Numbered from the stretch's first letter, positions 18,441 to 61,430 are shown. The stretch: DNA of 64,000 nucleotides from Candidatus Kuenenbacteria bacterium (GCA_013202715.1 JABMRF010000007.1:72566-136565); one strand, 5' to 3'. Notes: a model not told the origin generated them from the sequence alone. A program made the numbers and translations.

Positions 18441-20471
18441 ATGTCAATTTTTTCACGAATCAAAATTAAATTCTTAAGACAAAGAAGTTCCGAAGGCGAG
18501 AATTTGTTTTTATTTTTAAAAGATGGATTGAGTTTACAAAGTAAAGATTTGGCTAATAGAAGGAGAGGGGACTGGGTTGAGTCCGCTTTTATTAATAATT
18601 CAGATGAAGATGTTGCGCGAACAGGGAAAAATTATTTGGGCTTGAGTTTGAGTAATAAGAAGTTGGTCTTGTTTTTGTTGTTTGTGTTAACAGGGATTGG
18701 TTTGTTGTTCGGGCGGTCAGCTTATCTTCAGGTTGTAAAAGGGGATTATTATTTGAATATAGCGGAAAAAAACAGAATTCGAATATTTAATATTACCGCT
18801 CCGCGTGGAATTATTTATGATGTAAATAATGAAGCGTTAGTGAAGAATGTCCCAAGTTTTGCTGTGTTCATTACTCCTTATGATATGAATTTTAATTCAG
18901 ACCAGATTGAAAACACCAAAAAATGGCTTTATGAAAATCTTGAAGAAATAGAAATAAAAGAGAATTTAGAAAAGATTTTGGAATTAAAACAAAATGTAAA
19001 GGAATATTTTGAGCCGGTAATATTAATTGATGGATTGGAATATGAAAAAGCATTAGCCATGCGGATAGATAGTATGAATTATCCAGGTGTGAATATTCAG
19101 GTGACTGCAAAAAGGCAGTATCTAACATATTTCAAATGGCAGCCGGTGAGTAGCTTGGCTCACGTTCTTGGTTATCAGGGAAAAATTAATCCGGATGAAT
19201 ATGAAGAATTACAAAATTCAGGTTATTTGTTAAATGACTATATTGGAAAAACCGGGATTGAAACTTCATACGAAGAACAGTTTCGTGGGAAATATGGAAA
19301 AGAGCAGGTGGAAGTTGATTCTTCGGGCAAGGCGGTCAAAATTATTGCTCGGGAAGAAATGCAAAAAGGCGATAATATATTCTTGAGTATTGATTTGGAA
19401 ATGCAGGCGAAATTGGAGGCAATTATACAGAAATATTTATGGAAATTAAATAAAACAAAAGCGTCCGCAGTAGTCATGAATCCTGAGACCGGAAAAGTAT
19501 ATAGTCTGGTGAGTCTACCTGGTTACGACAACAATTTATTTGCTCAGGGCATTTCTCAGGATAATTTTGACAATTTACTAAAAGACAAAGATCGCCCCTT
19601 GTTCAATCGCGTACTTAGTGGTGAATATCCGTCCGGGTCAGTTATCAAGCCGGTGATTGGCGCGGCAGCGTTAGAAGAAAACGTTATAAATGAAAACAGT
19701 TCATTTCTGAGTGTTGGTGGGATCAGAATTACGGAATGGTTTTTTCCCGATTGGAAAGCCGGTGGTCACGGAATTACGAACATCAGAAAAGCAATAGCAG
19801 ATTCGGTGAATACATTTTTTTATATAATTGGCGGCGGACATGGTGATTTTGAAGGGCTTGGTGTTTATAAAATGAAAGAATATGCAGAAAAATTTGGTTT
19901 GAGCAGTATTACAGGAATTGATCTGCCAAATGAACAGTCTGGATTCTTGCCAACACCGGAATGGAAGCTGGAAACAAAAAAAGAACGCTGGTATATTGGT
20001 GACACGTATCACATGGCAATTGGCCAGGGTGATTTGTTGGTCACACCGCTTCAGGTTGCAAATTACACTTCTGTATTTGCAAACAATGGTAAATTGATGA
20101 AACCTCAAATTGTTGATCGTTATTTGGATCAGGAAAGTGGACAAGAAGTTGTTTTGGGCTCACAAATTATCCGTCAGGATTTTATTGAGCAAGAAAATAT
20201 AAATATTATCAGACAGGGAATGCGCCAGGCTGTAACAAATGGTAGTGCGAAGATTTTGAATTCTCTACCGGTAACTTCAGCTGCAAAAACTGGAACTGCG
20301 CAGTGGGCGACTGACAAAACACCTCATTCCTGGTTTACCGCTTTTGCGCCTTACAATGATTCTGAATTGGTGATTACCATTCTTGTTGAAGAGGGCGGTG
20401 AAGGAAGCGCAGTGAGTGCACCGATCGCGTATGAGTTTTTGAGCTGGTACTTTCGGGAGTATAGAAAGTAA
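18441..20471 (+). CDS. mrdA: Penicillin-binding protein 2 (elongation transpeptidase)
   Basis: N-terminal TM anchor; SGSVIKP (SxxK) and KTGTAQ (KTG) motifs; downstream of mreBCD. Confidence 0.85.
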   Translation: MSIFSRIKIKFLRQRSSEGENLFLFLKDGLSLQSKDLANRRRGDWVESAFINNSDEDVARTGKNYLGLSLSNKKLVLFLLFVLTGIGLLFGRSAYLQVVKGDYYLNIAEKNRIRIFNITAPRGIIYDVNNEALVKNVPSFAVFITPYDMNFNSDQIENTKKWLYENLEEIEIKENLEKILELKQNVKEYFEPVILIDGLEYEKALAMRIDSMNYPGVNIQVTAKRQYLTYFKWQPVSSLAHVLGYQGKINPDEYEELQNSGYLLNDYIGKTGIETSYEEQFRGKYGKEQVEVDSSGKAVKIIAREEMQKGDNIFLSIDLEMQAKLEAIIQKYLWKLNKTKASAVVMNPETGKVYSLVSLPGYDNNLFAQGISQDNFDNLLKDKDRPLFNRVLSGEYPSGSVIKPVIGAAALEENVINENSSFLSVGGIRITEWFFPDWKAGGHGITNIRKAIADSVNTFFYIIGGGHGDFEGLGVYKMKEYAEKFGLSSITGIDLPNEQSGFLPTPEWKLETKKERWYIGDTYHMAIGQGDLLVTPLQVANYTSVFANNGKLMKPQIVDRYLDQESGQEVVLGSQIIRQDFIEQENINIIRQGMRQAVTNGSAKILNSLPVTSAAKTGTAQWATDKTPHSWFTAFAPYNDSELVITILVEEGGEGSAVSAPIAYEFLSWYFREYRK

Positions 20472-20553
20472 ATGTAAAATGCAAAAATCAAAACCACATA
20501 TAAAATAATTTATAAAAAAATATTTTTAATTTTGGTCTTTGATTGTGGTTTTA

Positions 20554-20583: not shown

Positions 20584-20713
20584 CGTTTTTCATTTTGCAT
20601 TTTCCCTTTGTGAATAAGTTGACATTCTCCCAAAAATATACTATGTTCTTAATATATAGAAATAAATAAATAAGATCAGGCCTTTTTGGCCTGACTTTAT
20701 ATTGAATCAAATT

Positions 20714-50438: not shown

Positions 50439-50571
50439 CTGTATCAATTGGTTCTTTGAAAAATCGCTTGAGTACAACAGAAAGACCTTATTTACAATTA
50501 TCTATTGTATGTAGCGTCTTTTTGTTGTGTCGAGAGTCAACAATTTTTCAAAACCTTAATTGGAGGAAAGC

Positions 50572-52281
50572 ATGAAGAACGGAGAAAAGACGCTGAATGG
50601 AATCGTTGGTCTGTACAAGGAGTTTGGTCCCGACCTTCCGGTCGTGACCATCCAGGGAGTGCAGGTTGTCCGTCTGCCCAGCACCGTGACGGTGCTGGCG
50701 GACATGAAGGACGAGACGGTCCTCCAGCCCCTCAACCAGGCGAGGATTTTCCACGCCACTGACAGGCAGGGACAGTTTTTCCTGCTCCTCACCGAGGATG
50801 GCGCTGCCAAGATGGCATCGCTCATCGCAGAGGACCGGAACACCCGGGGTGAGGTTCTGACCGTGGCCGACGGCTACACCAAGTTCGTCACCTACACGGT
50901 GGCCATGGCAGCGGCAGCCGCCGCAGCCAAAGCCAAGAAGGCGGCAGCGGAAGCCAAGTCCCAGGCCAAGGCAGCAGCCACAGCCAAGCGGCTCGAGTCT
51001 TACAAGCTCATGGACCTGATCCGGTTCGGGCAGAGGGACTGCGTCCTCCTGCCCTCGGACGAGGTGGCGGAGATCCCGCTGCTAAAGGTCAAGCCCCTCC
51101 TGGGGACCATGGCTTCGTTCGTGAGGACCAAGCTGGAGGCAGTGGCCGAGCAGTACGAGGCCGACTACTCAACAGCTATCGCCGAGGCGCAGAAGGACAA
51201 GCCCTTCGCGCACGGCGGAGAGCTGGTCGACTGGGAGCGGGAGTTCCGTGCCCAGTGGGCTGACAAGAATGGCAAGTCCGCCCCGACGATGTGGGGTATG
51301 ACGGTTCTTCTCAGAAACTTCGACGATTACGGCGAGTTCGCCATGATCATCCGGTCGGATGACAAGGAGGCCATTCTGGGTCTCACCGGTTCGAGGTTGA
51401 TCTCTATGGGCGAGCCCATGCACTGGAGGCTCCGGAAGAAGTACTTCTTCGATCCGCGCGCAAAGGCGGCAGAAGAGGCGCGGAAGCTGGAGGCCAAGCT
51501 GGCTCGGGAAGCCAGGGCCAAGGAATCAGCGGAAAAGCTGCAGACCAAGGTCGAGGCCATGAAGGCCACCGGCAAGAACTTCCACACGTGTCAGGGCGAT
51601 ACCGTCTGGACACCTGTGGAATCCTTCGTGCGGATGTCCATGGACGATCTCGTCGTCTGCCCCGTCCTGGGGGAGATGAGCGAGGATGACGTCCTGGCCT
51701 GTATGGACGAGAAGTTCGTCGATGCGTACGAGTCCGCTCTGGACCAGGCGCAGAAGGCCGGCCCTCTCGGCGTGAAGGACTACTTCTCGTTCGAGGGGAA
51801 GTTCCGGAACGAGTATGCGAAGTCCAGCGGTGGTGCCACTCCCGGACTGGCGGACTTCGTCGTGGTGACGCGATACTTCCGTCGGGAAGGCGTGTGTTGC
51901 GCGGTCGTTCACAGGGACGATCTCGCGGCATTCAAGGCCATCGCGGGCAAGGGGACGAACCCCAACACCCGGGAGACCTACGAAGTTCCTCTTCGGGATC
52001 ACAGTGATCCCTTCTGGTGGATGCTCCGAAAGGAGCACTTCTTCGATCCCCTTTCCCAGCGAAAGGATCAGGAGAGGCAGGCAGAAGAAGAGGTCGTCGC
52101 GGTCCGGAAAGAACAGACGTTCGACCAGATGGGTGATCTCATCGGCGCTGAGCGACTGAAGGAGATGCGCGCATCGTTGGCTTCGGCCGACGAGGTCATC
52201 GATGATCACAAGTCTGCCGGCCGGCAGAAGTGGGACCGCCGGAAGAACGGTGGCGGCAAGAACCGCGGCAAGCGCGGCTAG
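50572..52281 (+). CDS. Hypothetical protein of foreign composition (~60% GC) with internal duplication, poly-Ala/Lys segments and a K/R/G-rich tail
   Basis: GGAGGA RBS; repeated P(M/F)xW(R/M)LRK(K/E)(Y/H)FFDP motif at two positions; AMAAAAAAAKAKKAAAEAK; C-terminal KWDRRKNGGGKNRGKRG. Confidence 0.6.
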   Translation: MKNGEKTLNGIVGLYKEFGPDLPVVTIQGVQVVRLPSTVTVLADMKDETVLQPLNQARIFHATDRQGQFFLLLTEDGAAKMASLIAEDRNTRGEVLTVADGYTKFVTYTVAMAAAAAAAKAKKAAAEAKSQAKAAATAKRLESYKLMDLIRFGQRDCVLLPSDEVAEIPLLKVKPLLGTMASFVRTKLEAVAEQYEADYSTAIAEAQKDKPFAHGGELVDWEREFRAQWADKNGKSAPTMWGMTVLLRNFDDYGEFAMIIRSDDKEAILGLTGSRLISMGEPMHWRLRKKYFFDPRAKAAEEARKLEAKLAREARAKESAEKLQTKVEAMKATGKNFHTCQGDTVWTPVESFVRMSMDDLVVCPVLGEMSEDDVLACMDEKFVDAYESALDQAQKAGPLGVKDYFSFEGKFRNEYAKSSGGATPGLADFVVVTRYFRREGVCCAVVHRDDLAAFKAIAGKGTNPNTRETYEVPLRDHSDPFWWMLRKEHFFDPLSQRKDQERQAEEEVVAVRKEQTFDQMGDLIGAERLKEMRASLASADEVIDDHKSAGRQKWDRRKNGGGKNRGKRG

Positions 52282-52325
52282 CTACCCAAACCTACCTAGG
52301 GACGTCCGTCCCAAAAGTCCCCCCC

Positions 52326-52360
52326 GCACTCGGGGGGGACATTTTTTTTGTCCGGATTTA
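52326..52360 (+). terminator. Rho-independent terminator (C7/G7 stem)
   Basis: gtccccccc gcactc gggggggac + TTTTTTTT. Confidence 0.85.
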
Positions 52361-52468
52361 AAAGGGGGCTCCATAGTTGCGGAGCACTGTGGAGTCCATA
52401 TAGGGATGTTTTAACGGTGATTTTGTGGAAGTTCTTTAAATTTTCCAACAGGACTATGGAGCCCCCTT
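52361..52468. repeat. ~108-nt element bounded by 16-17-bp perfect inverted repeats (possibly MITE-like or a structured RNA)
   Basis: aagggggctccatagt (52361-52377) ... actatggagccccctt (52452-52468) with internal ggagtccata/tatggagcc pairing. Confidence 0.55.
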
Positions 52469-52510
52469 TACTTTGTGTTTTTTGCGATTTTGCCTGTTTC
52501 GCGCTTTTGC

Positions 52511-52545
52511 GTTTATAGCTTGACAACTTAGCAATTTATACCTAT
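52511..52545 (+). promoter_or_regulatory. Promoter TTGACA-17-TATACT
   Basis: ttgacaacttagcaatttatacctatact upstream of the 52612 gene. Confidence 0.5.
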
Positions 52546-52611
52546 ACTAAGAAAAAGGACATGTTCGTTAAATTTGAGCCCCATGTTGCTAATTTGACTA
52601 GAGGAGGCTTG

Positions 52612-53286
52612 ATGATAAGGGTAAGTAAATCAAACTTGGTTTCGCCAATAAGCGATGCGTTTTGGCCGGTGTTTTTCTCAAGTGAATTGATTGTTCGTTT
52701 CGTTGCTCAGGCAGTTTGTTTTGCCTTGTGCGATAAAAAGAAAAAACCACAATTGATTTTTGTTTATCCATATGAAGGGTCTTCGAGTCGACCGACCGCT
52801 GGTCAGCTTTTGCAAGTTTTTCAGAACTGCAAAGATCCTTGGCGAGAGTTTAGACCATTTGCTCTGCCGGTAAAAATGTCTGACCTTCTCGATCTGACCG
52901 GCGTGAATATTGAATGTGTCCAGGATGATTCGCGAGAAGTGGTTATTCTGTATGCGAACAAACAACCGAAGGATGAAATTGATTTCTCTGATTCGATGCT
53001 TGTTAGCGGGTATGCAAAGGCCGATCTTATTGATATGAGATCGTGGCCAGAAAACCCGGAAGAATATACGGTTCATTCTGCGGGATTTGAACCTGATGGA
53101 TGGAACTCTGAACATTACAGGCTTTTCGTAGAAAACTACGTTGTTCAAGGGGATCATATTTGCAGGATTCTCGCCTTAGCCAGAATTGGCTGTGAGGTTG
53201 AACTCTCCCCCACTGTGCGTATCAACGCCAGGTCCAAGATCATGATTAACCCTCCAATCAAAGACGAACATCGAATTGTTCACTAG
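52612..53286 (+). CDS. Hypothetical protein (~45% GC)
   Basis: GGAGG RBS 6 nt upstream of the ATG at 52612; 224 aa; no motif. Confidence 0.45.
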   Translation: MIRVSKSNLVSPISDAFWPVFFSSELIVRFVAQAVCFALCDKKKKPQLIFVYPYEGSSSRPTAGQLLQVFQNCKDPWREFRPFALPVKMSDLLDLTGVNIECVQDDSREVVILYANKQPKDEIDFSDSMLVSGYAKADLIDMRSWPENPEEYTVHSAGFEPDGWNSEHYRLFVENYVVQGDHICRILALARIGCEVELSPTVRINARSKIMINPPIKDEHRIVH

Positions 53287-53292
53287 GAAATA

Positions 53293-53326
53293 AAAAGTCC
53301 CCCATCACTGGGGGCATTTTTCTTTT
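53293..53326. terminator. Bidirectional terminator
   Basis: gtccccc atcact gggggc flanked by A/T runs. Confidence 0.7.
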
Positions 53327-53336
53327 AAATATATAT

Positions 53337-54533
53337 CTATAAGTGTGCAATAATCTTTTTTGCGAATTCTTGACGGTGTGGATGAATGAATTGTAATATT
53401 TCATCTTTGCTCACCCACTTGATTTCCTCAACCTCTTCTGAATCTGAAAAGTCAATGTTTGAATCCTTACCTTGGAACTCCAACAGAAAGGCGGTTTGTT
53501 CTTGGCCTTTGAAACCTTTTAAAAGATTTTGATATTCAGCTGGATTGTCGTATCTGTGTTGTTCTGGGATTTTTTTTATTAATTTAAATAATTTTTCTGA
53601 CGCCCCAACCTCTTCGCTTGATTCTCGAACTACCGCTGTTTCTGGGGTTTCTTCTTGGTCAACTCCGCCTTGAGGAAATTGCCAATGATTTTTTCCAAAG
53701 CGTGGGTTTCTTATTATTAAAAATTTCCCTTCTTTGTTTTTAGTTACTCCAATGACATTTTGCCTGTATTCTGACTGAATTCTTTTTTTCCATTTGTGAC
53801 AAACAAGTAAGAAATCAGCTGTGGCGTTTTTGATTCGTTTCAATCGGCTTGGTTCCTGATAAAGTCGATAGGCCCATTCCAATCCCGAATCGCGAACAAG
53901 TTTTGGCGCTCGCTTGATTTTTTCTGTCAGAAAATCAATACTTCCACCTATTCCAATTGCGACTTTTACACCTGGAATTAGTTTTATATATTTGTTGATC
54001 CAAAACTCTTGTGCCGGCGCGCCCAAAGTTACAAATAGTATTTTTGGTCCAAAGGTATTGATAGAATTTAAAACTTCATCACAATTGTCTGGGTTTTTTA
54101 TGTCGATCTGGCTGATTTGGAAGTTTAGTTTTGGATATTTTTCCTTGAATAGTTTTTTTATGTCAGCTTCAGTGGACAGGGAGTCGTTTCTTAGAACGAT
54201 GAAGACTTTAGTTTCTGTATCTTTATATTTTTCCAAAATTTCTTTTGTTAAGTCTGAGCCTGCCACCCTGTTCTCGAGAGTTTCACCCAGAATCTTGGCG
54301 CCAAGTTTCAAACCGATCCCGTCAGGGATGTTTATATCGGCTCGATTCAAAACGTGTCGGTACTCATCATCTTTTTCCGCTTTTAGGCAGATTTCTGGAT
54401 TTGGAGTATATATTTTGTGCTGGTCATTGGAATTTAAAAATTGGTCAATTTTTTGTAATACAAAATCCATTGGCTGGTCGGTGATTTGAACGCCGAGGAT
54501 AATTGATTTGTTTTGGAACTCGGGAGGACGCAT
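53337..54533 (-). CDS. Fusion protein: WecG/TagA/CpsF-family glycosyltransferase (N-terminal) plus NUDIX hydrolase (C-terminal)
   Basis: N-terminal half matches WecB/TagA/CpsF-type glycosyltransferases (TPNPEICLKAEKDDEYRHVLNRADINIPDGIGL). C-terminal Nudix box GGVDQEETPETAVVRESSEEVG. Confidence 0.7.
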   Translation of the reverse strand: MRPPEFQNKSIILGVQITDQPMDFVLQKIDQFLNSNDQHKIYTPNPEICLKAEKDDEYRHVLNRADINIPDGIGLKLGAKILGETLENRVAGSDLTKEILEKYKDTETKVFIVLRNDSLSTEADIKKLFKEKYPKLNFQISQIDIKNPDNCDEVLNSINTFGPKILFVTLGAPAQEFWINKYIKLIPGVKVAIGIGGSIDFLTEKIKRAPKLVRDSGLEWAYRLYQEPSRLKRIKNATADFLLVCHKWKKRIQSEYRQNVIGVTKNKEGKFLIIRNPRFGKNHWQFPQGGVDQEETPETAVVRESSEEVGASEKLFKLIKKIPEQHRYDNPAEYQNLLKGFKGQEQTAFLLEFQGKDSNIDFSDSEEVEEIKWVSKDEILQFIHPHRQEFAKKIIAHL

Positions 54534-54624
54534 ATAGAAAAATAATTTCTACCCCACTTTCTGCGATCGCCGTAATTTTATATGAAGGCGATAGTGGGCT
54601 CACTAATGCTACCAGTTGAGCTGA

Positions 54625-55170
54625 CTAGAAGTCAGGCGGAAATTTTTTTAAAATTGAATAAATTGGGCCGGCTGGGGTAAGGTCGCTCTTTATAAGTTCA
54701 ATGGATTTCACCGTAAAGGAGAGTGCCTCAGTTTCCACTTGGTATCGAAGTTTGGCGCTGGCAGTTTTGATTCGTCCTAAAGTGATATGTGGCAAGAACG
54801 GACGATTGTCCACCTCAAGACCATTTTTTTGAAAAATATCTTTTACCGCTTCATGAATTTTTTTAAGTTTTTTTTCTGGGTCTAATATCTTAATTTTAAT
54901 TACCCGAGGTTTTTCTTTATTTGGGAATGATCCCGGCCTCTCAAGCGTCAAAATTAAATTCTCCGGAACACTAATGGATTCTAGATCTGTCTTTATCTTG
55001 TTTAGGGCTGCCTCTTTAATATTTTCAATAAAACCCAGAGTCAAGTGCAGATTCTCTGGCTCGACCCACTTGATGTTGACCCTCTGGTTTTCTTTGTCAA
55101 TTTTAAAAATAAGATCTTCGAGGTAATCCTGGACTTCTTTCGGTAAATTTATAGCTAGAAATGCTCGCAT
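54625..55170 (-). CDS. thpR: RNA 2',3'-cyclic phosphodiesterase (2H family, ThpR/LigT)
   Basis: Two H-x-T-x motifs (HLTLGFI; HITLGRI) at the correct spacing; 181 aa. Confidence 0.75.
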   Translation of the reverse strand: MRAFLAINLPKEVQDYLEDLIFKIDKENQRVNIKWVEPENLHLTLGFIENIKEAALNKIKTDLESISVPENLILTLERPGSFPNKEKPRVIKIKILDPEKKLKKIHEAVKDIFQKNGLEVDNRPFLPHITLGRIKTASAKLRYQVETEALSFTVKSIELIKSDLTPAGPIYSILKKFPPDF

Positions 55171-55215
55171 AATGTGATTGAATAATAGCATATTATCTGG
55201 TAAAATGGAAGTGAA

Positions 55216-55262
55216 GATAAGTTGTCCCGCGCGGCGGGATCCCGCTACGCGGGATAAGTTGT
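55216..55262. repeat. GC-rich 30-nt tandem-hairpin mini-element (copy 2) flanked by the 10-bp direct repeat GATAAGTTGT
   Basis: gataagttgt-cccgcgcggcgggatcccgctacgcgg-gataagttgt. Confidence 0.65.
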
Positions 55263-55293
55263 AGAGTTGTAAATAGCAATTTGGAAATAAAAT

Positions 55294-56172
55294 ATGAAAG
55301 AAGCACTACTTTATACAAAGGAATCAAATAGGATCGTTCACTGCCTTTGCTGTGAGCATCATTGTGTTATTCGGAATGGTGCCGTGGGTGTTTGTAATGT
55401 TCGGAAAAATGAGGATGGTAAACTGTACAGTTTAGTTTACGGAAAAATAATTGCTCAGCATGTGGATCCGATTGAAAAAAAGCCACTCTATCATTTTCTA
55501 AAAGGTTCACTCACCTATTCGATCGCCACAGTTGGTTGTAATTTCAAATGTAAGCATTGTCAAAATGCGGACATTGCGCAGTTCAGGGAGCACGTTGGTG
55601 AGGAGGACTGGATTCCCGGCGCTCTATTAAAGCCTGTTGATATTGTCCGATTTGCCGGGGAAAATAACTGCGAGAGCATTGCCTATACTTATACAGAGCC
55701 AACGATATTTGTCCAGTTTGCGCTCGAAACAATGAAGCTGGCGCGCCAAGCTGGATTGAAAAATGTTTGGGTGTCAAACGGATACTTTTCAAATGATACT
55801 TTTGAATTGATAAAATATTATTTGGATGCGATTAATATTGATCTTAAGTTTTTCAATGACCTGACTTACAAACAGATTTGCGGGGCGAAGTTGGAGCCGG
55901 TTTTGCGAAGCATCCGCTCGTGTGTTGCAAATAATATTCACACTGAAGTTACAACTCTTGTGATTCCTGGGATGAACGACAGCAATACTGAGCTTCATCG
56001 GATTGCAGATTTTCTGTACAATGTTGACCCGGAAATTGTTTGGCATTTGTCCGCATTTTACCCTGCGAGTGAAATGAAGGATGTTTCCCCTACTTCGATC
56101 GGAACTCTGAACCGAGCCTTGAAAATTGGCTTAGCCGCAGGCCTGAAAAACGTGTATTTAGGGAATGTTTAG
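55294..56172 (+). CDS. Radical SAM enzyme of the AmmeMemoRadiSam / PflA-like activase type
   Basis: CNFKCKHCQN (CxxxCxxC); upstream DPIEKKPLYHF and an N-terminal Cys-rich segment (HCLCCEHHCVIRNGAVGVC), characteristic of the AmmeMemoRadiSam-system radical SAM family. Confidence 0.65.
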   Translation: MKEALLYTKESNRIVHCLCCEHHCVIRNGAVGVCNVRKNEDGKLYSLVYGKIIAQHVDPIEKKPLYHFLKGSLTYSIATVGCNFKCKHCQNADIAQFREHVGEEDWIPGALLKPVDIVRFAGENNCESIAYTYTEPTIFVQFALETMKLARQAGLKNVWVSNGYFSNDTFELIKYYLDAINIDLKFFNDLTYKQICGAKLEPVLRSIRSCVANNIHTEVTTLVIPGMNDSNTELHRIADFLYNVDPEIVWHLSAFYPASEMKDVSPTSIGTLNRALKIGLAAGLKNVYLGNV

Positions 56173-56177
56173 TTTGT

Positions 56178-56203
56178 AGGTAAAATGTAAAAGTTAAAAG
56201 TAT
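56178..56203. repeat. 26-nt post-stop direct repeat AGGTAAAATGTAAAAGTTAAAAGTAT (copy 1)
   Basis: Recurs at 58949-58982 directly after the clpB stop. Confidence 0.7.
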
Positions 56204-56231
56204 GGACCCTGGAATGGGTTTTTAAAAATAC

Positions 56232-56259
56232 TTGACAAATTTCTAATTTCTTATATACT
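56232..56259 (+). promoter_or_regulatory. Promoter TTGACA-16-TATACT for clpB
   Basis: Consensus -35; about 70-nt leader. Confidence 0.5.
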
Positions 56260-56332
56260 GGGGTTGGCACTCTCTACTTCCGACTGCCAATATTACTATC
56301 AACTTTTACATAATAACTTTTACCTAATTTCT

Positions 56333-58954
56333 ATGGATATCAGAAAATTCACTACAAATTCACAACAAGCTCTTCAATCAGCGCAAGCGCTTGCTTTTGA
56401 GTACAAGCATTCACAAATTGATACAATTCATTTGCTTTGTGCACTACTTGAACAAGATGAAAGTATTGTTTTGACCGTATTAAAAAAACTGGAACTTCCT
56501 GTCGAGCAAATGATTCAGCAGGTCAAATCTATTTTGCATAAATTTCCAAAGGGCCGAACTCCTAGCGCTGCTGGCGGTCAAGTTGCCGTGACTCCGCCAA
56601 TGAATTATGTTTTGGTTAATTCGGAAAAAGAATCCAAGAAGCTGGGCGATGAATTTGTAAGTACAGAACATTTATTGCTGTCACTTTTGAAAGTTGACTC
56701 CCCTGCTTCTGAACTTCTGAAAATGTTTAATGTTGATTATGATACAGTTTTGAAAATTCTCTCTGATGTGCGCGGTGATGAAAAAGTTGACTCCCCTGAC
56801 CCAGAAAACAAAAGGGATGTTTTGGATAAGTTTACCATGAACTTGACTCAGGAAGCGCGGGAAGAAAAATTAGATCCAATTATCGGGCGAGACGACGAAG
56901 TTCGACGAATTTTACAAGTACTTTCTCGAAGAACAAAAAACAATCCAGTTTTAATTGGAGAACCTGGCGTTGGAAAAACTGCAATCGCCGAAGGATTGGC
57001 TCAGCGTATTGTTTCCGGCGATGTTCCGGAAAATCTTAAGAACAAGGAAGTTTTAAGTTTGGATATTGGCTCTCTTGTGGCCGGATCAAAATTTCGTGGT
57101 GAATTTGAAGAAAGAATGAAGGCTGTCTTGAAAGAAATTCAAAAGAACAAAGACAAATACATCATATTTATAGATGAATTGCATACAATTGTTGGAGCAG
57201 GCTCAATCGAAGGCTCACTGGACGCTTCAAATATGCTCAAGCCAGCGCTTGCTCGTGGAAATTTGAGATGTGTTGGCGCTACAACATTAAAAGAATATCA
57301 AAAATATATCGAAAAAGACGCCGCACTGGAGCGAAGATTTCAGCCCGTGATGGTATTGGAGCCTGATTTGGATGATACAATTGCAATCCTTCGTGGAATC
57401 AAGGAAAAATATGAAGTCCACCATGGTGTGCGCATTACAGATGATGCAGTTGTGGCAGCAGCAAAACTTTCTCAGAAATATATTACCGACCGATTTTTGC
57501 CTGACAAAGCTATTGACCTTGTTGACGAAGCAACATCAGCTCTTCGAATTGAGCTGAACAGTATGCCGATCGAGCTGGATCAATTGAAACGTAAGATTAT
57601 GAAATTGGAAATTGAAAAGCAAGCCATTGCCAGAGAAAAAACTGACACAGCAAAGGCAAAGCTGAGTGGCATCGACAAAGAATTAGAGGAACACAAGGAA
57701 AAAGCAAATCAACTCGAAATTCATTGGAAAAAGGAAAAAGAATTGATTGAGCAAATTCAATCTGCAAAAAAAGATATTGATAAATTAAAACAAGAAGCGG
57801 AAATTTTGGAAAGAAAAGCCGAATATGACCGAGTCGCGGAAATCCGTTACGGAACAATCCCTGAACTTGAGAAAAAGATCAAAAGTCTTCAAGCTCGTTT
57901 TCGAAAAGTGCAGTCAGGTCCTGGTGGTCGGAAAATTTTAAAAGAAGAAGTAACTGAAGAAGATATTGCTAGCGTAGTCTCAATGTGGACAGGCATTCCT
58001 GTTACAAAGATGCTACAAAGCGAAATAGAAAAATTGGCGCATGCGGAAGACGAGCTTGCCACTCGAGTAATTGGTCAGAAAAAATCAATTGCCTCGGTTG
58101 CCAATGCACTTCGTCGTTCCCGGGCTGGATTGTCAGAAGAAAATCGACCAATTGGTTCATTCCTCTTCCTCGGTCCGACCGGAGTTGGTAAGACTGAGCT
58201 GGCAAAATCGCTTGCTGAGTTTATGTTCAATAGTGAAGAAGCAATTATTCGCGTCGATATGTCTGAATACATGGAAAAGCATTCAGTTTCAAAGCTGATT
58301 GGATCTCCTCCAGGATACATTGGTCACGATGAAGGTGGGCAGTTAACTGAACGCGTTCGTCGGCGTCCTTATTCAGTAATCTTGTTCGATGAAATCGAAA
58401 AAGCTCATCCAGAAGTTTTCAATTCTCTATTGCAAATCTTGGACGACGGCAGGCTGACTGATTCAAAGGGCCGAACCGTTAATTTCAAAAATACAATTAT
58501 CATCATGACATCAAATATCGGCTCAGATACAATTCTGGATGCGATTAATAAATCTGATCTTGGCTTTGGAAATCAGGAAGCAAGTCAAAAAGAATCAATT
58601 GACAAAAAAATCCTTGGTCGCCTAAAAGAGCATTTCCGTCCTGAGTTTCTAAATCGAATTGATGAGATTATGATTTTTGATGCTTTGAATAAAAAAGAAC
58701 TGCGAAAAATTGTTGACCTTCAGCTGGAAATTGTTGGTAAACGTTTGGAAGAAAAAGAAATTCAGATCAAATTTAGCTCAGAAGTTAAAGATATGTTGGC
58801 GGAAAAGGGCTATGATCCACAGTTTGGAGCTCGGCCACTAAAACGATTGATTCAAACGATGATTCTCGATGAGCTTGCTTTGCAGATTATCGAAGGAAAG
58901 ACTAAGAGTAAAGTTAGCGTTGAGCTTTCGAAAGGAAAAGTAGTCTTTAGGTAA
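56333..58954 (+). CDS. clpB: ClpB disaggregase (two AAA+ modules, middle coiled coil)
   Basis: Two Walker A boxes (GEPGVGKT; GPTGVGKT); M-domain coiled coil; N-terminal Clp_N repeats. Confidence 0.95.
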
Positions 58955-58982
58955 AATGTAAAATGTAAAAGTTAAAAGTATA
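58949..58982. repeat. Post-stop direct repeat (copy 2, with an extra AAATGT unit)
   Basis: aggtaaaatgtaaaatgtaaaagttaaaagtat overlapping the clpB stop. Confidence 0.7.
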
Positions 58983-59065
58983 TAACAAAGGAGCTTGGAA
59001 AAAGCTCTTTTGTATTTGAATTAACGAGTCTTGCTAAAATTCCTCTTTTCCATTATAATTACAGT

Positions 59066-60436
59066 ATGCGAAATACAAAAAAGATCGTAATTTTTACTTT
59101 AATTTTAGGTTTGATTTTTCCTTTTCAAACCGTTTTTGCGGTTGATTTTAACAATGGCTATATAATTTCAGATCAGGATTTAGTGAATTCAAGTGCCATG
59201 ACTTTGGGCGAAATTCAGAATTTTTTAGATAGACGAAACGGGACACTTGATACTTATACAGCAATCGATGATGATGGAGAAATAATAACAGCAGCGGAAA
59301 TTATTTTTAATGCATCTGTTGAGCATGTTATCAATCCAAAGTTTTTGTTGGTCATGTTGCAAAAAGAACAAAGCCTGGTTGAAGATTCTTCACCAACTCA
59401 AAAACAGTATGATTGGGCAATGGGTTATGGAATTTGTGACAGTTGTGATATGGATGACCCGAGTCTTTTGAAATTCAAGGGGTTTGCAAATCAAGTTGAT
59501 AATACTGCCGGAGCAAACCGTTGGTACATTGATACCGAAGAAAACTGGATCAAACGTCCCGGCAATACATATGAAATTGATGGTGAGCAGGTCAATATTA
59601 TGAATCAAGCCACCGCCAATCTATATAACTTCACTCCTCATATTCACGGAAATTATAATTTTTGGAAAATCTGGAATCGCTGGTTCAATCAAAGTTATCC
59701 GGACGGATCATTGTTGCAAGGCGAAGGAGAACAAGGTGTTTGGTTGATAGACAATGGAATGCGCCGTCCTTTTCATTCGAAAAGTGCACTGGTTTCACGT
59801 TATGATCTAGATAATATTATTATTGTCAGCAAAAATGAAATAGATAAATATGAAATCGGTCGGGCGATTAAATTTGCAAATTATTCCCTTTTACAAATCC
59901 CAACTGAAGATGTTTATTTATTAGTAAATGACGAGCTTCGCAAGTTCGAATCAAAAGAAGTTCTGCGCACACTTGGATTTAATCCGGAAGAATATGAGCA
60001 GCTCAGCCTTGTAGACTTTGAGGAGTATGAACTTGGTGAACAGATCACAATGACAAGCGCGTACCCTGCTGGCGGATTGCTTCAGGATAATACTACTGGA
60101 GGAGTTTTCTTTGTTCAGGATGGACATAAATACGCGATTATTACCAAAGACATTTTTGAAATAAATTATCCAAACTACACCTTGACTTCAGTCACACCGG
60201 AAGAGTTGAGTAAATTTCCACGTTGGGGTGAAGTTCGACTGAAAAACGGAATTATTGTAAAGTCAGTTGAGTCACCTATTGTCTACGTTATTTCAAATGA
60301 AAAAAAGCGTCCTATTGTCTCTGCTGATGTTTACGAGCGACTTGGCTATAAATGGGAAAACATTAAAGTTGTAAGTGAGAAAAGTTTGTCGAACATGCCA
60401 CTGGGCAGTGCGGTGGATCTGGACTTTAAGAAATAA
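59066..60436 (+). CDS. Secreted hypothetical protein with four ~45-aa C-terminal tandem repeats
   Basis: Signal peptide MRNTKKIVIFTLILGLIFPFQTVFA; four repeats starting WLIDNGMRRPF, YLLVNDELRKF, FFVQDGHKYAI and VYVISNEKKRPI. Confidence 0.55.
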   Translation: MRNTKKIVIFTLILGLIFPFQTVFAVDFNNGYIISDQDLVNSSAMTLGEIQNFLDRRNGTLDTYTAIDDDGEIITAAEIIFNASVEHVINPKFLLVMLQKEQSLVEDSSPTQKQYDWAMGYGICDSCDMDDPSLLKFKGFANQVDNTAGANRWYIDTEENWIKRPGNTYEIDGEQVNIMNQATANLYNFTPHIHGNYNFWKIWNRWFNQSYPDGSLLQGEGEQGVWLIDNGMRRPFHSKSALVSRYDLDNIIIVSKNEIDKYEIGRAIKFANYSLLQIPTEDVYLLVNDELRKFESKEVLRTLGFNPEEYEQLSLVDFEEYELGEQITMTSAYPAGGLLQDNTTGGVFFVQDGHKYAIITKDIFEINYPNYTLTSVTPEELSKFPRWGEVRLKNGIIVKSVESPIVYVISNEKKRPIVSADVYERLGYKWENIKVVSEKSLSNMPLGSAVDLDFKK

Positions 60437-60438: not shown

Positions 60439-60530
60439 ATAACGCGAATGTCACTAATTTTAACGCGAATATCGCGAATCGCGAATGTTGCGAATAATAA
60501 TATTCGTGTTATTCGCGATTTGCCGTTCGG
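60439..60530. repeat. (C/T)GCGAAT repeat array with inverted ATTCGC units, upstream of the LigB-like gene
   Basis: aacgcgaatg...taacgcgaatatcgcgaatcgcgaatgttgcgaataataatattcgtgttattcgcgat. Confidence 0.7.
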
Positions 60531-60586
60531 CCACGAGCTCACGGCCGAGTGGCGTCATTCGCATATGTTCATATTCGTGTAAATCT

Positions 60587-61375
60587 ATGCTCACCTTTGC
60601 GGCCATTGTGCCTCATCCACCGGTCTTGATTCCAAGTATCGGTAAAGAAAATATAGATAAATTAAAAAAAACCATTAGTGCTTTGGATATTCTTGAGGAA
60701 GAATTAAATCAAGCGAATCCTGATACTATAATTGTGATTTCTCCGCATGGCGAAATTAATTTTGAAGCATTTACAGTTAATACTAATGAAAAATATACAG
60801 CAAGATTTGAAAATTTTGGCGATTTTACAACCAAGCTGGAATTTAAATCAGATCTGGGATTTATAAATCAGCTAAAAGCGACAAATGAAACAAAATTACC
60901 GGTCCAACTGATTTCACAAGAAAATCTTGATCATGGTGTGTCGGTCCCCCTTTATTACTTGACTCGAAAAAATCAAGATCGCAGAATTGTGCCGATCAAT
61001 TATAGTTTTTTGAATTTTAATAAACATTTAGAGTTTGGCGAATTGATAAAAGAAGCCATTTTTTCTTCAGACAAAAGAGTTGCAATTATTGCTTCCGGAG
61101 ATCTATCACACAAGTTGAGTTTGCGAGCGCCAGCAGGATTTTCTCCACACGCAAAAGAGTTCGACAAAAAGCTGATTCAGGTTTTGAAAAAGAAAAGTGT
61201 GCAGGGAATTTTGGATATGGATCCGGCCTTTATCGAAGAGGCTGGCGAATGCGGTCTACGCTCATTCCTGATCCTACTTGGAGCGATTAAAAACATGAAA
61301 TATGAATTTGAAGTTTTGAGCTACGAAGCACCGTTTGGGGTTGGCTATTTAGTCGGAGAGTTCAAGTTTGCGTAA
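60587..61375 (+). CDS. LigB/Memo-superfamily (class III extradiol-dioxygenase-like) protein
   Basis: N-terminal AAIVPHPPV (LigB-type metal His), VISPHGE, and ASGDLSHKLS (YgiD/DODA-like S-x-D-L-S-H). Confidence 0.55.
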   Translation: MLTFAAIVPHPPVLIPSIGKENIDKLKKTISALDILEEELNQANPDTIIVISPHGEINFEAFTVNTNEKYTARFENFGDFTTKLEFKSDLGFINQLKATNETKLPVQLISQENLDHGVSVPLYYLTRKNQDRRIVPINYSFLNFNKHLEFGELIKEAIFSSDKRVAIIASGDLSHKLSLRAPAGFSPHAKEFDKKLIQVLKKKSVQGILDMDPAFIEEAGECGLRSFLILLGAIKNMKYEFEVLSYEAPFGVGYLVGEFKFA

Positions 61376-61430
61376 TGCGAATATAGATAAATGCGAATGA
61401 CGCGAATCGCGAATGATGCGAATAAAGAAT
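61371..61430. repeat. (C/T)GCGAAT repeat array downstream of the LigB-like gene
   Basis: gcgtaatgcgaatatagataaatgcgaatgacgcgaatcgcgaatgatgcgaataaag; five units mirroring the upstream array. Confidence 0.7.

What the first reader, a model, noticed from the sequence alone, without database searches (positions are those of the whole stretch)
56178..58982. clpB is bracketed by a 26-nt direct repeat that starts at the stop codons of two consecutive genes
AGGTAAAATGTAAAAGTTAAAAGTAT follows the radical-SAM stop (56178-56203). The same sequence, with one extra AAATGT unit, overlaps the clpB stop (58949-58982). A related TAAATGTAAAATGCAAAAATCAAAACC follows the mrdA stop (20469-20498). This is not a hairpin. 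It may be a conserved 3'-end signal (a processing or binding site) or a repeat that mediated insertion of clpB between the radical SAM gene and the downstream genes.
Basis: seen in the sequence. Interest (0 to 1): 0.55.

Follow-up and report, generated by a model that had tools for sequence, protein, structure and literature searches.

The report
Gene-boundary heptamer repeat arrays flanking clpB
The 26-base repeat on both sides of clpB is real, but it is one copy of a small dispersed family of 7-base-unit arrays that this tiny-genome (CPR/Patescibacteria) bacterium and its relatives place next to stop and start codons. It is not a scar of clpB insertion, and a third, inverted copy forms the clpB leader, so the copies can base-pair.

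Summary
GGTAAAATGTAAAAGTTAAAAGTAT occurs at 56179-56203 and, with one extra unit, at 58948-58979, against 0 matches expected by chance. A further near-identical copy lies 9.8 kb beyond clpB, outside the window. The mrdA copy is a true diverged member.

The source is a Falkowbacteria-like Patescibacteria contig. The repeat belongs to a lineage-wide class:
- Short-unit tandem arrays, mostly 7 nt, number 16 in spacers against 0.7 in shuffles.
- They are purine-rich in the sense strand after stops.
- They appear as reverse complements (AACUUUU-type units) before start codons that lack a Shine-Dalgarno sequence.

Relatives with 79-84% ClpB identity keep clpB at the same position without this repeat, so repeat-mediated insertion is rejected. 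Their clpB leaders carry their own arrays, some with a complementary arm in the leader.

My reading is inferred, not shown. The U-rich leader copy loads ribosomes without a Shine-Dalgarno sequence. The A-rich copies are complementary masks (-19.5 and -23.3 kcal/mol). A neutral slippage and copying by-product remains a strong rival. I class it as a new variant of the known intergenic heptamer-repeat arrays.

The parts
56168..56203 (+). Post-stop copy A of the array, after the AmmeMemoRadiSam radical-SAM gene. The core element TAGGTAAAATGTAAAAGTTAAAAGT is at 56177-56201. It is A/purine-rich in the sense strand. TAG and TAA triplets close all three reading frames within 14 nt of the stop.
   Evidence: (family D17)
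56206..56223 (+). Small hairpin ACCC-TGGAAT-GGGT followed by TTTT. It is a weak terminator-like element directly after copy A.
   Evidence: Read from the sequence and present in the fold. The terminator scan did not call it.
56232..56259 (+). clpB promoter, TTGACA-16-TATACT. It lies between copy A and the inverted copy.
   Evidence: 11 of 12 consensus matches. The same layout is seen in relatives.
56264..56290 (+). CIRCE-like inverted repeat TTGGCACTC-N9-GACTGCCAA, the presumed HrcA operator, at the start of the clpB transcript.
   Evidence: Sequence. Relatives carry TTAGCACTC-N9-GACTGCTAA at the same place. The CIRCE consensus is from my own knowledge.
56294..56327 (-). Inverted copy, which forms the clpB leader: CAACTTTTAC-ATAAT-AACTTTTACC. 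It is U-rich in the sense strand and ends 5 nt before the ATG at 56333. There is no Shine-Dalgarno sequence. Its units resemble the T7 epsilon enhancer UUAACUUUA.
   Evidence: (I5, I11)
56333..58954 (+). clpB (873 aa)
   Evidence: TIGR03346, 1250.9 bits against a cutoff of 1232.1
58946..58981 (+). Post-stop copy B. The core TAGGTAAAATGTAAAATGTAAAAGTTAAAAGT is at 58948-58979. It contains the clpB stop TAA at 58952-58954 and has one unit more than copy A.
58985..59013 (+). clpB intrinsic terminator (12-bp stem followed by a T run), directly after copy B.
20469..20498 (+). Diverged family member after the mrdA stop: TAAATGTAAAATGCAAAAATCAAAACC.
   Evidence: 21 of 24 positions identical to copy B
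20585..20603 (+). U-rich complement (GTTTTTCATTTTGCATTTT) of the mrdA array. It pairs with the array to form an outer stem that encloses the mrdA terminator.
   Evidence: fold of 20465-20605, z = -4.4
60445..60497 (+). Same architecture with a different unit: a GCGAAT array after the stop of the 456-aa ORF.
   Evidence: (D5)
60546..60577 (-). Inverted GCGAAT array, ending just before the Memo/LigB ATG at 60587.
   Evidence: (I8)
61376..61425 (+). A second GCGAAT array in the plus orientation, directly after the Memo/LigB stop. This repeats the three-copy layout seen at clpB.

Best explanation
What it is (shown). The repeat is a roughly 25-32-nt cassette of 7-nt units, TAGG-TAAAATG-TAAAAGT-TAAAAGT. 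It belongs to a small dispersed family with five copies in the 73 kb I could read. That family is one of several unit families (GTAAAAK, GCGAATn, AGTCnnn and others) that this Falkowbacteria-like Patescibacteria genome and its relatives carry next to gene boundaries. The arrays have a polarity relative to the gene. They are purine/A-rich in the sense strand when they follow a stop codon. They appear as the reverse complement, U-rich with AACUUUU-type units, when they directly precede a start codon that lacks a Shine-Dalgarno sequence.

clpB has all three elements:
- a loosely conserved U-rich leader copy at 56294-56327;
- an A-rich copy in its own 3' UTR, between the stop codon and the terminator;
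- an A-rich copy after the upstream radical-SAM stop, ahead of the clpB promoter and CIRCE operator.

The near-identity of the two A-rich copies reflects recent local copying. It does not reflect insertion of clpB.

How it most likely works (inferred). The elements act in RNA. The U-rich leader array serves as a Shine-Dalgarno-independent ribosome-loading or enhancer region, like the T7 epsilon element and other S1-dependent leaders. The A-rich arrays are its complements. In read-through transcripts from the radical-SAM gene, copy A pairs with the leader and brings the radical-SAM stop next to the clpB start. The leader is then masked until an upstream ribosome or RNase III opens the stem. In the promoter-derived clpB mRNA, only the 3'-UTR copy can pair with the leader. 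Changes in unit number by slippage would tune these pairings.
For: Family and boundaries:
- All five copies lie within 12 nt of a stop or start codon.
- Arrays with period 5-11 number 19 in the 9.3% of the window that is intergenic, against 9 in coding sequence (binomial p = 8e-14).
- Spacers hold 16 arrays, against 0.71 +/- 0.78 in dinucleotide shuffles.
- Falkowbacteria-like loci have 4.1 arrays per 10 kb, against 1.1-1.5 per 10 kb in 74 other clpB loci. Period 7 is the commonest.

Polarity:
- Sense-strand purine fraction is 0.60 for post-stop arrays and 0.35 for pre-start arrays (p = 8.5e-5). The trend also holds for minus-strand genes.
- AACTTT occurs at 1.99 per kb before starts and 0.43 per kb after stops. 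Its complement AAAGTT shows the reverse, 0.28 against 1.28 per kb (Fisher p = 0.03).
- None of 11 genes with a pre-start array has a Shine-Dalgarno sequence, against 13 of 38 other genes (p = 0.024).

Pairing:
- The two ends of the same spacer pair better than ends from different spacers (Mann-Whitney p = 0.004). The clpB spacer gives -19.7 kcal/mol, at the 2.5th percentile.
- The clpB leader pairs with copy B at -23.3 kcal/mol and with copy A at -19.5 kcal/mol. The background across the window is -6.7 +/- 3.0 kcal/mol.
- Co-folding the 5' and 3' UTRs gains -23.6 kcal/mol and includes the AUG. In the read-through fold, the radical-SAM stop region pairs next to the clpB start.
- The 3' arms of the bracketing hairpins end 5-14 nt before the ATG.

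Relatives:
- All six relatives have a promoter and CIRCE element, then U-rich arrays before the clpB ATG. L127, L128 and L129 also have complementary arms inside the leader, with unrelated sequences.

Precedents:
- The H. influenzae hmw1A (ATCTTTC)n array in the 5' UTR forms a long hairpin that RNase III cleaves (PMC12721329).
- TAACTGA heptamer repeats mostly abut start codons without a ribosome-binding site, and some overlap upstream stop codons (PMC4679880).
- The A/U-rich T7 gene 10 enhancer is proposed to act through ribosomal protein S1 (PMC8748333).
- An anti-Shine-Dalgarno motif was detected in only 48% of Parcubacteria (PMC9297842).
Against: - There are no expression data of any kind. 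The transcription start, read-through and RNA pairing are all predictions.
- Sense and antisense strands fold equally well (sense more stable in 7 of 18 cases, p = 0.70). Nothing therefore points specifically to RNA rather than DNA.
- 5'UTR-3'UTR pairing is not a general feature. It is absent in the window overall (p = 0.54) and in relatives. The clpB pair ranks only at the 14th percentile in the fixed 40-nt-window test.
- The A-rich copies are absent from all relatives.
- Whole array hairpins come and go. The spacer upstream of Memo is 19-28 nt in four relatives and 150-297 nt in three others. None of these elements is therefore essential.
- Some arrays do not fold at all (6265-6378 and 9322-9420).
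- A coding site near 4027 pairs with the clpB leader as well as copy B does, so AU-rich complementarity of this strength can arise by chance.
- The upstream clpB hairpin is only modestly better than shuffles (z = -2.0).
Confidence: 0.42

Rival explanations
1. Neutral by-product. The arrays are long simple-sequence repeats made by polymerase slippage. They are then copied between nearby spacers by template switching or gene conversion, and made palindromic by quasi-palindrome correction. They persist only where they do no harm, just outside coding sequences and as foldable insertions. They have no function, and the clpB bracketing is an accident of two neighbouring copies.
For: - Heptamer simple-sequence repeats are the commonest class in most bacterial genomes and were attributed to slippage (Mrazek 2007, as summarised in PMC4679880, and in PMC4692102).
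- Array sequences turn over completely among relatives with 79-84% ClpB identity, and whole hairpins are present or absent.
- Near-identical cassettes lie a few kb apart: GTAAAA copies match at 24 of 25 positions, and GCGAAT blocks repeat likewise.
- There is no sense/antisense folding asymmetry.
- An array with a 10-nt period even sits in frame inside priA.
Against: - Strand polarity follows gene orientation, including for minus-strand genes.
- Pre-start arrays and Shine-Dalgarno sequences are mutually exclusive.
- The 3' arms end consistently 5-14 nt before the ATG.
- A U-rich AACTTTT-type leader recurs before clpB in five relatives.
- The arrays are imperfect (70-95% unit identity), which is not what recent slippage would produce.
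- The genome is 91% coding and would be expected to purge useless DNA.
Confidence: 0.3
2. One reading: a single-stranded 3'-end signal. The A-rich post-stop array would be a binding or processing platform. Possible partners are an RNA chaperone, an RNase or a cold-shock-domain protein with a 7-nt footprint. It could also act as a three-frame stop cassette, independent of any pairing with the leader.
For: - Copies A, B and the mrdA copy all start at or within 5 nt of a stop codon and precede terminator-like hairpins.
- The TAG and TAA triplets spaced 7 nt apart close all three frames (read directly from the sequence). The same property was noted for TAACTGA repeats.
- CspB binds one heptamer per protein (cited in PMC4679880).
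- The same 20-mer lies 1-29 nt after long ORFs in 7 unrelated metagenome loci.
Against: - The same element also occurs inverted, in front of start codons.
- Many post-stop arrays of other families contain no stop triplets.
- The sequence is not conserved at orthologous 3' ends.
- The metagenome hits are single AT-rich 20-mers, and chance matches are expected in a collection of that size.
Confidence: 0.13
3. DNA-level element. The inverted copies at 56179-56203 and 56294-56327 flank the clpB promoter and CIRCE operator. They could be the arms of an invertible promoter segment, a cruciform, or paired binding sites for a DNA-binding regulator.
For: - The inverted repeats enclose 91 bp that hold the promoter and operator.
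- Both strands fold equally well.
Against: - In L127, L128 and L129 both arms lie downstream of the promoter, inside the leader.
- Two independent assemblies show the same orientation.
- None of the proteins scanned against protein-family libraries is a recombinase. This covers only part of the window.
- The arms are only 74% complementary.
- The same style of hairpin fills intercistronic spacers in operons that contain no promoter.
Confidence: 0.05
4. The direct repeats are the footprints or mediators of insertion of clpB between the radical-SAM gene and the downstream genes. That would make them a target-site duplication or a recombination substrate.
For: - The direct repeats flank exactly one gene.
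- The two genes that clpB separates are functional partners: the AmmeMemoRadiSam radical-SAM enzyme and protein B.
Against: - The order radical SAM, clpB, 456-aa ORF, Memo/LigB is conserved in L127, L128, L130 and L132 without the repeat.
- Further copies exist at unrelated loci.
- The 456-aa ORF also lies between the two partners but outside the repeats.
- The Memo gene shows the same bracketing with a different array.
Confidence: 0.03

Closest known systems
Intergenic heptamer direct-repeat arrays, also called long simple-sequence repeats. Examples are TAACTGA in Beggiatoaceae and cyanobacteria (PMC4679880), GGGAATC in Xanthomonas and GGGGAYT in Nostoc (PMC4692102), and the cyanobacterial STRR heptamers.
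   Same: - Tandem units of about 7 nt that are strongly intergenic.
- They abut gene ends. TAACTGA sets mostly end next to start codons without a ribosome-binding site, and some overlap upstream stops. GGGAATC sets lie about 28 nt from the upstream ORF.
- Units that contain stop triplets close all three frames.
- The mode of spread is unknown.
   Different: - Those genomes use one dominant unit at 100 or more loci. Here several unit families each have only a few copies, and the units differ completely between related species.
- Here the arrays typically occur as direct plus inverted pairs that bracket a spacer, with purine/pyrimidine polarity relative to the gene.
- My literature searches found no description of this in CPR/Patescibacteria.
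H. influenzae hmw1A 5'-UTR (ATCTTTC)n repeat hairpin processed by RNase III (PMC12721329)
   Same: - A pyrimidine-rich heptamer array is transcribed within a 5' UTR and pairs with a purine-rich arm to form a long imperfect hairpin that controls expression.
- The clpB leader units of L128 (ATCTTGA, ATCTTTA) are almost the same heptamer.
   Different: - hmw is a phase-variable adhesin with 10 or more perfect repeats. Here the arrays have 2-5 imperfect units and sit at housekeeping genes.
- In the window, the purine arm lies upstream of the promoter or in the 3' UTR rather than in the leader.
- RNase III cleavage and repeat-number variation are untested here.
T7 gene 10 'epsilon' A/U-rich translational enhancer (UUAACUUUA; PMC8748333)
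   Same: - The leader units (U)UAACUUUU(A) match epsilon at 8 of 9 positions.
- They sit just upstream of start codons that lack a Shine-Dalgarno sequence.
   Different: - Epsilon is a single copy that augments a Shine-Dalgarno sequence in a phage of E. coli. Here the units are tandem and replace the Shine-Dalgarno sequence.
- The resemblance comes from memory plus a motif count. It is not a functional test.
REP/BIME-type extragenic palindromes and 5'UTR-3'UTR pairing as in S. aureus icaR (both from my own knowledge)
   Same: - Short dispersed intergenic repeats placed after stop codons, often in inverted pairs, and affecting mRNA ends.
- icaR shows that a 3' UTR can pair with its own leader and mask initiation.
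   Different: - Each REP unit is itself a palindrome and is present in hundreds of copies, with an associated RAYT transposase. These cassettes are not self-complementary and are few.
- Pairing of the icaR type is not a general feature here.

Membership tests
Intergenic heptamer / long simple-sequence repeat arrays (LSSR, STRR, TAACTGA type) | Head-to-tail tandem units of 5-11 nt, with more copies than composition predicts | tested here: met
   TRF finds period 7, 2.9 copies and 100% matches at 58951-58970. Spacers hold 16 arrays, against 0.71 +/- 0.78 in shuffles.
Intergenic heptamer / long simple-sequence repeat arrays (LSSR, STRR, TAACTGA type) | Strong intergenic bias, with heptamers as the commonest period | tested here: met
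   19 arrays lie in the 9.3% of the window that is intergenic, against 9 in coding sequence (p = 8e-14). Period 7 accounts for 27 of 65 arrays in Falkowbacteria-like loci.
Intergenic heptamer / long simple-sequence repeat arrays (LSSR, STRR, TAACTGA type) | The same unit recurs at many loci across the genome | tested here: inconclusive
   In 73 kb there are five GTAAAA-family loci and at least five GCGAAT loci. Several different families coexist. The rest of the genome could not be read.
Intergenic heptamer / long simple-sequence repeat arrays (LSSR, STRR, TAACTGA type) | Unit-number polymorphism between strains | tested here: inconclusive
   The only second assembly (Logan contig L002) is 100% identical across 50233-58980. 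No other close strain was available.
hmw1A-type 5'-UTR repeat hairpin / RNase III element | A pyrimidine-rich heptamer array lies inside the transcribed 5' UTR | tested here: met
   The leader copy at 56294-56327 lies downstream of the predicted promoter at 56232-56259 and ends 5 nt before the ATG. The transcription start is predicted, not mapped.
hmw1A-type 5'-UTR repeat hairpin / RNase III element | A complementary purine-rich arm within the same 5' UTR forms a long hairpin | tested here: not met
   In the window, the purine arms lie upstream of the promoter (56179-56203) and in the 3' UTR (58948-58979). The leader on its own is unstructured (-6.1 kcal/mol). The feature is met in relatives L127, L128 and L129.
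hmw1A-type 5'-UTR repeat hairpin / RNase III element | RNase III cleavage and repeat-number-dependent expression | not testable with these tools
   This needs RNA end mapping and genetics.
Intrinsic (Rho-independent) terminator | A G+C-rich hairpin followed by a U tract, within the element itself | tested here: not met
   The repeat does not fold on its own (fold of 58940-59030). The terminator is the separate hairpin at 58985-59013.
REP/BIME or MITE | A self-complementary unit, or terminal inverted repeats with a target-site duplication, present in many copies | tested here: not met
   A single cassette is not palindromic. The flanks of the four aligned copies share no duplication. Only five copies occur in 73 kb.
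Known structured RNA families (RNA thermometers, leaders, sRNAs in Rfam) | A match to a curated covariance model | tested here: not met
   No Rfam hit at gathering thresholds across the whole window. No hit at E <= 1 in 56000-59200.
Insertion scar / target-site duplication of a mobile clpB | Repeats flank a segment that is absent from, or elsewhere in, close relatives | tested here: not met
   clpB sits at the same syntenic position in L127, L128, L130 and L132 without the repeats.
Invertible promoter (inverton) | Inverted repeats flank a promoter, a recombinase is present, and both orientations occur in the population | tested here: inconclusive
   The inverted repeats do flank the promoter. 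Two assemblies show one orientation, and none of the proteins scanned is a recombinase. Sequencing reads were not available.
CIRCE/HrcA operator (the neighbouring element, not the repeat) | TTAGCACTC-N9-GAGTGCTAA between the promoter and a heat-shock gene | tested here: met
   TTGGCACTC-N9-GACTGCCAA lies at 56264-56290, directly after the -10 box. The element is conserved in six relatives. The consensus is from my own knowledge.

The most novel reading that the evidence does not exclude
The unit families could act as sequence 'addresses' in RNA. Each family would link U-rich leaders that lack a Shine-Dalgarno sequence to complementary A-rich 3' UTRs. For the GTAAAA family, the leaders belong to clpB and a 148-aa gene, and the A-rich 3' UTRs belong to mrdA, the radical-SAM gene and clpB. 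This could work in cis, closing an mRNA into a loop so that termination at the stop codon unmasks its own start; clpB and Memo/LigB show this layout. It could also work in trans, forming a fast-evolving post-transcriptional network in bacteria that often lack the anti-Shine-Dalgarno motif.
Probability: 0.08. Interest if true: 0.8.

Novelty: new variant of a known kind. Interest (0 to 1): 0.45.

Why it matters
CPR/Patescibacteria are a very large and almost entirely uncultured part of bacterial diversity. Their ribosomes are unusual, and many appear to lack the anti-Shine-Dalgarno motif (PMC9297842). How their mRNAs recruit ribosomes, and how genes in operons are coupled, is essentially unknown.

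If the gene-boundary arrays are functional, they would be a simple, rapidly evolvable cis-code for translation initiation and masking in these organisms. They would also be a useful annotation feature for finding true start codons and operon structure in metagenome-assembled genomes.

If they are neutral, they still matter practically. They break assemblies: the Logan contig ends inside the clpB repeat. They also create direct repeats that could delete genes such as clpB.

Tried and rejected
1. clpB insertion or target-site duplication. Rejected because synteny is conserved in relatives that lack the repeat.
2. Known RNA families. There are no Rfam hits at gathering thresholds or at E <= 1, and no tRNA or tmRNA in the window.
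3. General 5'UTR-3'UTR 'closed loop' pairing. It is not a genome-wide property (p = 0.54 in the window, none in relatives). Only Memo/LigB stands out clearly, and clpB weakly.
4. RNA-specific selection seen as a sense versus antisense folding asymmetry. None was found.
5. Exact-match scan of metagenomes for AAAATGTAAAAGTTAAAAGT. It returned 44 contigs with one hit each, and the source genome was not among them. About 15 hits lie in longer AAAAGT-type arrays and 7 distinct loci are directly post-stop. Chance matches of an AT-rich 20-mer cannot be excluded.
6. Cold-shock protein or RNase III genes in the window. None was found among the proteins scanned, and the 73-aa ORF at 9417 has no Pfam match.
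7. Promoter function of the TAAAAT units. Only a weak 9-of-12 match was found.
8. Extending the sequence leftwards along the contig. Two look-ups failed because my guessed start codons did not match the recorded gene calls. A third look-up, on the right side, failed for the same reason.
9. Literature searches for CPR intergenic repeat arrays. Nothing was found.
10. Integron attC sites. I considered these because they are post-stop imperfect palindromes. I dismissed the idea without a dedicated test, because the flanked genes are syntenic housekeeping genes.
Full report
OBSERVATION. GGTAAAATGTAAAAGTTAAAAGTAT is exact at 56179-56203 and recurs at 58957-58981 with one mismatch. No match was seen in 100 dinucleotide-preserving shuffles. 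The clpB copy carries one extra GTAAAAT unit (TRF: period 7, 2.9 copies, 100% matches at 58951-58970).

Two details need correcting. The radical-SAM ORF (55294-56172) stops at TAG 56170-56172, which is 6 nt before the 26-mer. The TAG inside the repeat is out of frame. The clpB stop TAA at 58952-58954 does lie inside the repeat. In an ungapped 36-nt register (56168-56203 vs 58946-58981, 86% identity) both copies begin with TTTAG. The mrdA site is a genuine diverged member, with 21 of 24 positions identical to the clpB copy.

A third copy lies inverted at 56294-56327 (CAACTTTTAC-ATAAT-AACTTTTACC) and ends 5 nt before the clpB ATG at 56333. It is 74% complementary to the upstream copy and 82% complementary to the downstream copy over 34 nt (pairs I11 and I5). 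Between the upstream copy and the inverted copy lie three elements:
- a small hairpin followed by a T run (56206-56223);
- a near-consensus promoter, TTGACA-16-TATACT, at 56232-56259 (11 of 12 matches);
- a CIRCE-like operator, TTGGCACTC-N9-GACTGCCAA, at 56264-56290.

Directly after the downstream copy comes the clpB terminator at 58985-59013. The predicted clpB mRNA therefore carries the U-rich inverted copy in its leader and the A-rich copy in its 3' UTR. The other A-rich copy belongs to the 3' end of the radical-SAM message.

A fifth copy, TAGGTAAAATGTAAAAGGTAAAAGT, matches copy A at 24 of 25 positions. It lies outside the window at window-equivalent 68780-68804 (L133:17134-17158), in a 45-nt spacer between two minus-strand genes. 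Read in the sense of those genes it is again a U-rich array just before an ATG.

SOURCE AND RELATIVES. The window is part of JGI metagenome contig Ga0335113_11320043 (203,828 bp). An independent Logan assembly is 100% identical across 50233-58980 and ends inside the clpB 3' repeat. The nearest ClpB homologues are 79-84% identical and come from 'Candidatus Falkowbacteria' and other Patescibacteria.

I fetched six related loci. L127, L128, L130 and L132 keep the gene order radical SAM, clpB, 456-aa ORF, Memo/LigB, PriA. L129 and L131 lack the radical-SAM gene. None has the GTAAAA repeat after the radical-SAM gene or after clpB. This excludes the idea that the repeat mediated clpB insertion.

One point is worth noting here. 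The radical-SAM protein is the AmmeMemoRadiSam radical-SAM enzyme (TIGR04337, 255 bits against a cutoff of 220). The LigB/Memo protein passes the cutoff for its partner, protein B (TIGR04336). So clpB and the 456-aa ORF do split a functional gene pair. That arrangement is old and shared by the relatives, and it is unrelated to the repeat.

THE REPEAT BELONGS TO A LINEAGE-WIDE CLASS. Listing all spacers shows that many start, right after the stop codon, with an imperfect short-period array. Many also end, right before the next start codon, with the reverse complement. Each pair uses a locus- or family-specific unit:
- AGTCnnn at 13809-13877 and 50230-50301;
- GACAAGCCA at 14284-14412;
- CAAAGnn and nnCTTTG at 18283-18420;
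- GCGAATn at 60445-60497, 60546-60577, 61376-61425 and two further sites outside the window.

The numbers are as follows:
- 19 arrays (period 5-11, at least 2.5 copies) fall in the 9.3% of the window that is intergenic, against 9 in coding sequence (p = 8e-14).
- Spacers hold 16 arrays, against 0.71 +/- 0.78 in dinucleotide-preserving shuffles of the same spacers.
- Falkowbacteria-like loci have 4.1 arrays per 10 kb, against 1.1-1.5 per 10 kb in 74 clpB loci from other bacteria. Period 7 is the commonest.
- GCGAAT is the most intergenic-enriched hexamer, at 5.5 times expectation.

The bracketing arrays form long imperfect hairpins that are more stable than shuffles, with z between -3.0 and -5.7 for six spacers. 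The stop-proximal and start-proximal 40 nt of the same spacer pair better than ends from different spacers: 7 of 35 fall below the 5th percentile (p = 0.004). The clpB spacer gives -19.7 kcal/mol, at the 2.5th percentile. Relatives show the same style with entirely different units, and each has its own dispersed families.

POLARITY AND LINK TO TRANSLATION STARTS. In the sense strand of the adjacent gene, arrays within 40 nt of a stop are purine-rich (mean 0.60, n = 18). Arrays within 40 nt of a start are pyrimidine-rich (mean 0.35, n = 17; p = 8.5e-5). The trend also holds for minus-strand genes.

Genes preceded by arrays have no Shine-Dalgarno sequence (0 of 11, against 13 of 38 other genes; p = 0.024). 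This was checked after correcting three start codons. The 3' arms of the bracketing hairpins end 5-14 nt before the ATG, where a 30S subunit would dock.

The clpB leader unit AACTTTT(A) recurs before clpB in L130, L131, L132 and partly L128, and before other genes in L127 and L131. AACTTT occurs at 1.99 per kb before starts and 0.43 per kb after stops. Its complement AAAGTT shows the reverse, 0.28 against 1.28 per kb.

The unit resembles the T7 gene 10 epsilon enhancer UUAACUUUA. The sequence of that enhancer is from my own knowledge. Its A/U-rich nature and its proposed action through S1 are described in PMC8748333. An anti-Shine-Dalgarno motif was detected in only 48% of Parcubacteria (PMC9297842), so initiation without Shine-Dalgarno pairing is plausible in this group.

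MECHANISM (INFERRED). The U-rich leader copy is the older and more conserved part, and it probably serves ribosome loading. The A-rich copies are its complements. Leader against copy B gives -23.3 kcal/mol, and leader against copy A gives -19.5 kcal/mol. The background across the window is -6.7 +/- 3.0 kcal/mol.

On their own, the leader and the 3'-UTR array are unstructured. Co-folding them gains -23.6 kcal/mol and covers the AUG. In a read-through transcript the radical-SAM stop region pairs next to the clpB start. This suggests that the initiation region is masked. The mask could be opened by a ribosome terminating upstream (translational coupling), by RNase III, or by heat.

The closest experimentally studied analogue is the H. 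influenzae hmw1A (ATCTTTC)n 5'-UTR hairpin, which RNase III cleaves (PMC12721329). The Memo/LigB gene shows the same three-copy layout with GCGAAT arrays, and its 5'UTR-3'UTR duplex reaches -38.6 kcal/mol (0.03rd percentile).

CAVEATS AND RIVALS. Nothing here shows transcription or function. Several results weaken the RNA model:
- Sense and antisense strands fold equally well.
- 5'-3' pairing is not a general feature.
- The A-rich copies are missing in all relatives.
- Whole hairpins are gained and lost. The spacer upstream of Memo is 19-28 nt in four relatives and 150-297 nt in three others.
- Some arrays do not fold at all.
- A coding site pairs with the clpB leader as well as copy B does.

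A neutral origin therefore remains a serious rival. It would combine slippage, for which heptamers are the favoured class (Mrazek 2007 via PMC4679880), with local copying. I give it 0.30, against 0.42 for the RNA-masking model. A pure single-stranded 3'-end signal gets 0.13, a DNA-level or inverton role 0.05, and an insertion scar 0.03.

COMPARISON WITH KNOWN SYSTEMS. The class is closest to the intergenic heptamer-repeat arrays: TAACTGA in Beggiatoaceae (PMC4679880), and GGGAATC in Xanthomonas and GGGGAYT in Nostoc (PMC4692102). It differs in four ways:
- There are several low-copy unit families per genome instead of one dominant unit.
- The units are completely replaced between related species.
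- The arrays form direct plus inverted pairs that bracket spacers.
- They have a gene-oriented purine/pyrimidine polarity.

My searches found no description of this in CPR bacteria. I therefore class it as a new variant of a known kind, of moderate interest.

Noticed in passing
55294-56172 and 60587-61375: The radical-SAM gene is the AmmeMemoRadiSam-system radical-SAM enzyme (TIGR04337). The LigB/Memo gene passes the cutoff for its partner, protein B (TIGR04336). The two partners are separated by clpB and an unannotated 456-aa ORF, and this arrangement is kept in relatives L127, L128, L130 and L132.
   Followed up: partly
60445-60497, 60546-60577, 61376-61425; L133:13552-13606 and L133:19031-19138: A second array family, with GCGAAT units, has at least five loci. 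It brackets the Memo/LigB gene in the same three-copy layout as clpB: plus, inverted before the ATG, plus after the stop. GCGAAT is the most intergenic-enriched hexamer (5.5 times expectation). The Memo 5'UTR-3'UTR duplex is predicted at -38.6 kcal/mol.
   Followed up: partly
63353-63389 and 8792-8817: An array with a 10-nt period (AAAGAAGGCG, 3.7 copies) lies in frame inside the N-terminal region of priA and encodes a charged low-complexity insert. Its reverse complement is the pre-start array of the gene at 8824, 54 kb away.
   Followed up: no
13809-13877 and 50230-50301: Two self-contained hairpins are built from the same AGTCnnn and nnnGACT heptamers (z = -3.8 and -5.3) at loci 36 kb apart. 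One precedes a 128-aa ORF and the other precedes the glutamyl-tRNA synthetase gene. Only the 4-nt cores pair; the 3-nt spacers between them do not.
   Followed up: partly
15662-18440: The mreB-mreC-mreD-mrdA cluster has 100-160-nt spacers filled by bracketing array hairpins before mreC and mrdA, and an array directly before mreB. None of these three genes has a Shine-Dalgarno sequence. In most bacteria these genes are tightly packed.
   Followed up: partly
23175-23255: The 81-nt spacer folds into a strong G+C-rich hairpin (-30.4 kcal/mol, z = -3.1). The ends of this spacer show the best pairing of any spacer in the window. It has no Rfam match and is not built from arrays.
   Followed up: partly
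35984-36013; also L127:7991-8169, L127:8713-8898 and L129 spacers: Small G+C-rich palindromes of the type TCCGCC-N3-GGCGGA recur in spacers of this genome and its relatives (3 matches in the window against 0.57 expected). They look like a separate REP-like family.
   Followed up: partly
32222-34910: Two tandem paralogous genes (32358-33422 and 33548-34795) have duplicated upstream and downstream flanks (105-nt and 83-nt repeats, 86-91% identical). This is an ordinary segmental duplication. It is the only other case of direct repeats bracketing a gene.
   Followed up: no
L002 (Logan SRR28106059 contig), whose end corresponds to window 58980: An independent assembly of the same organism breaks exactly inside the clpB 3' repeat. 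Repeated 25-mers of this kind would be expected to fragment short-read assemblies.
   Followed up: no
L083-L126 (metagenome contigs): The exact 20-mer AAAATGTAAAAGTTAAAAGT occurs in 44 unrelated metagenome contigs. About 15 of these hits lie within longer nAAAAGT heptamer arrays. In 7 distinct loci the hit lies 1-29 nt after a long ORF, and two hits lie just before terminator hairpins. Chance matches cannot be excluded.
   Followed up: partly
L132:6623-6768: The relative with 79% ClpB identity has its own post-stop array after clpB. It begins TAG-ATGTAAAAT, as in the window, and continues with about six CACAAAT units. This may be a remnant of shared ancestry of the clpB post-stop array.
   Followed up: no
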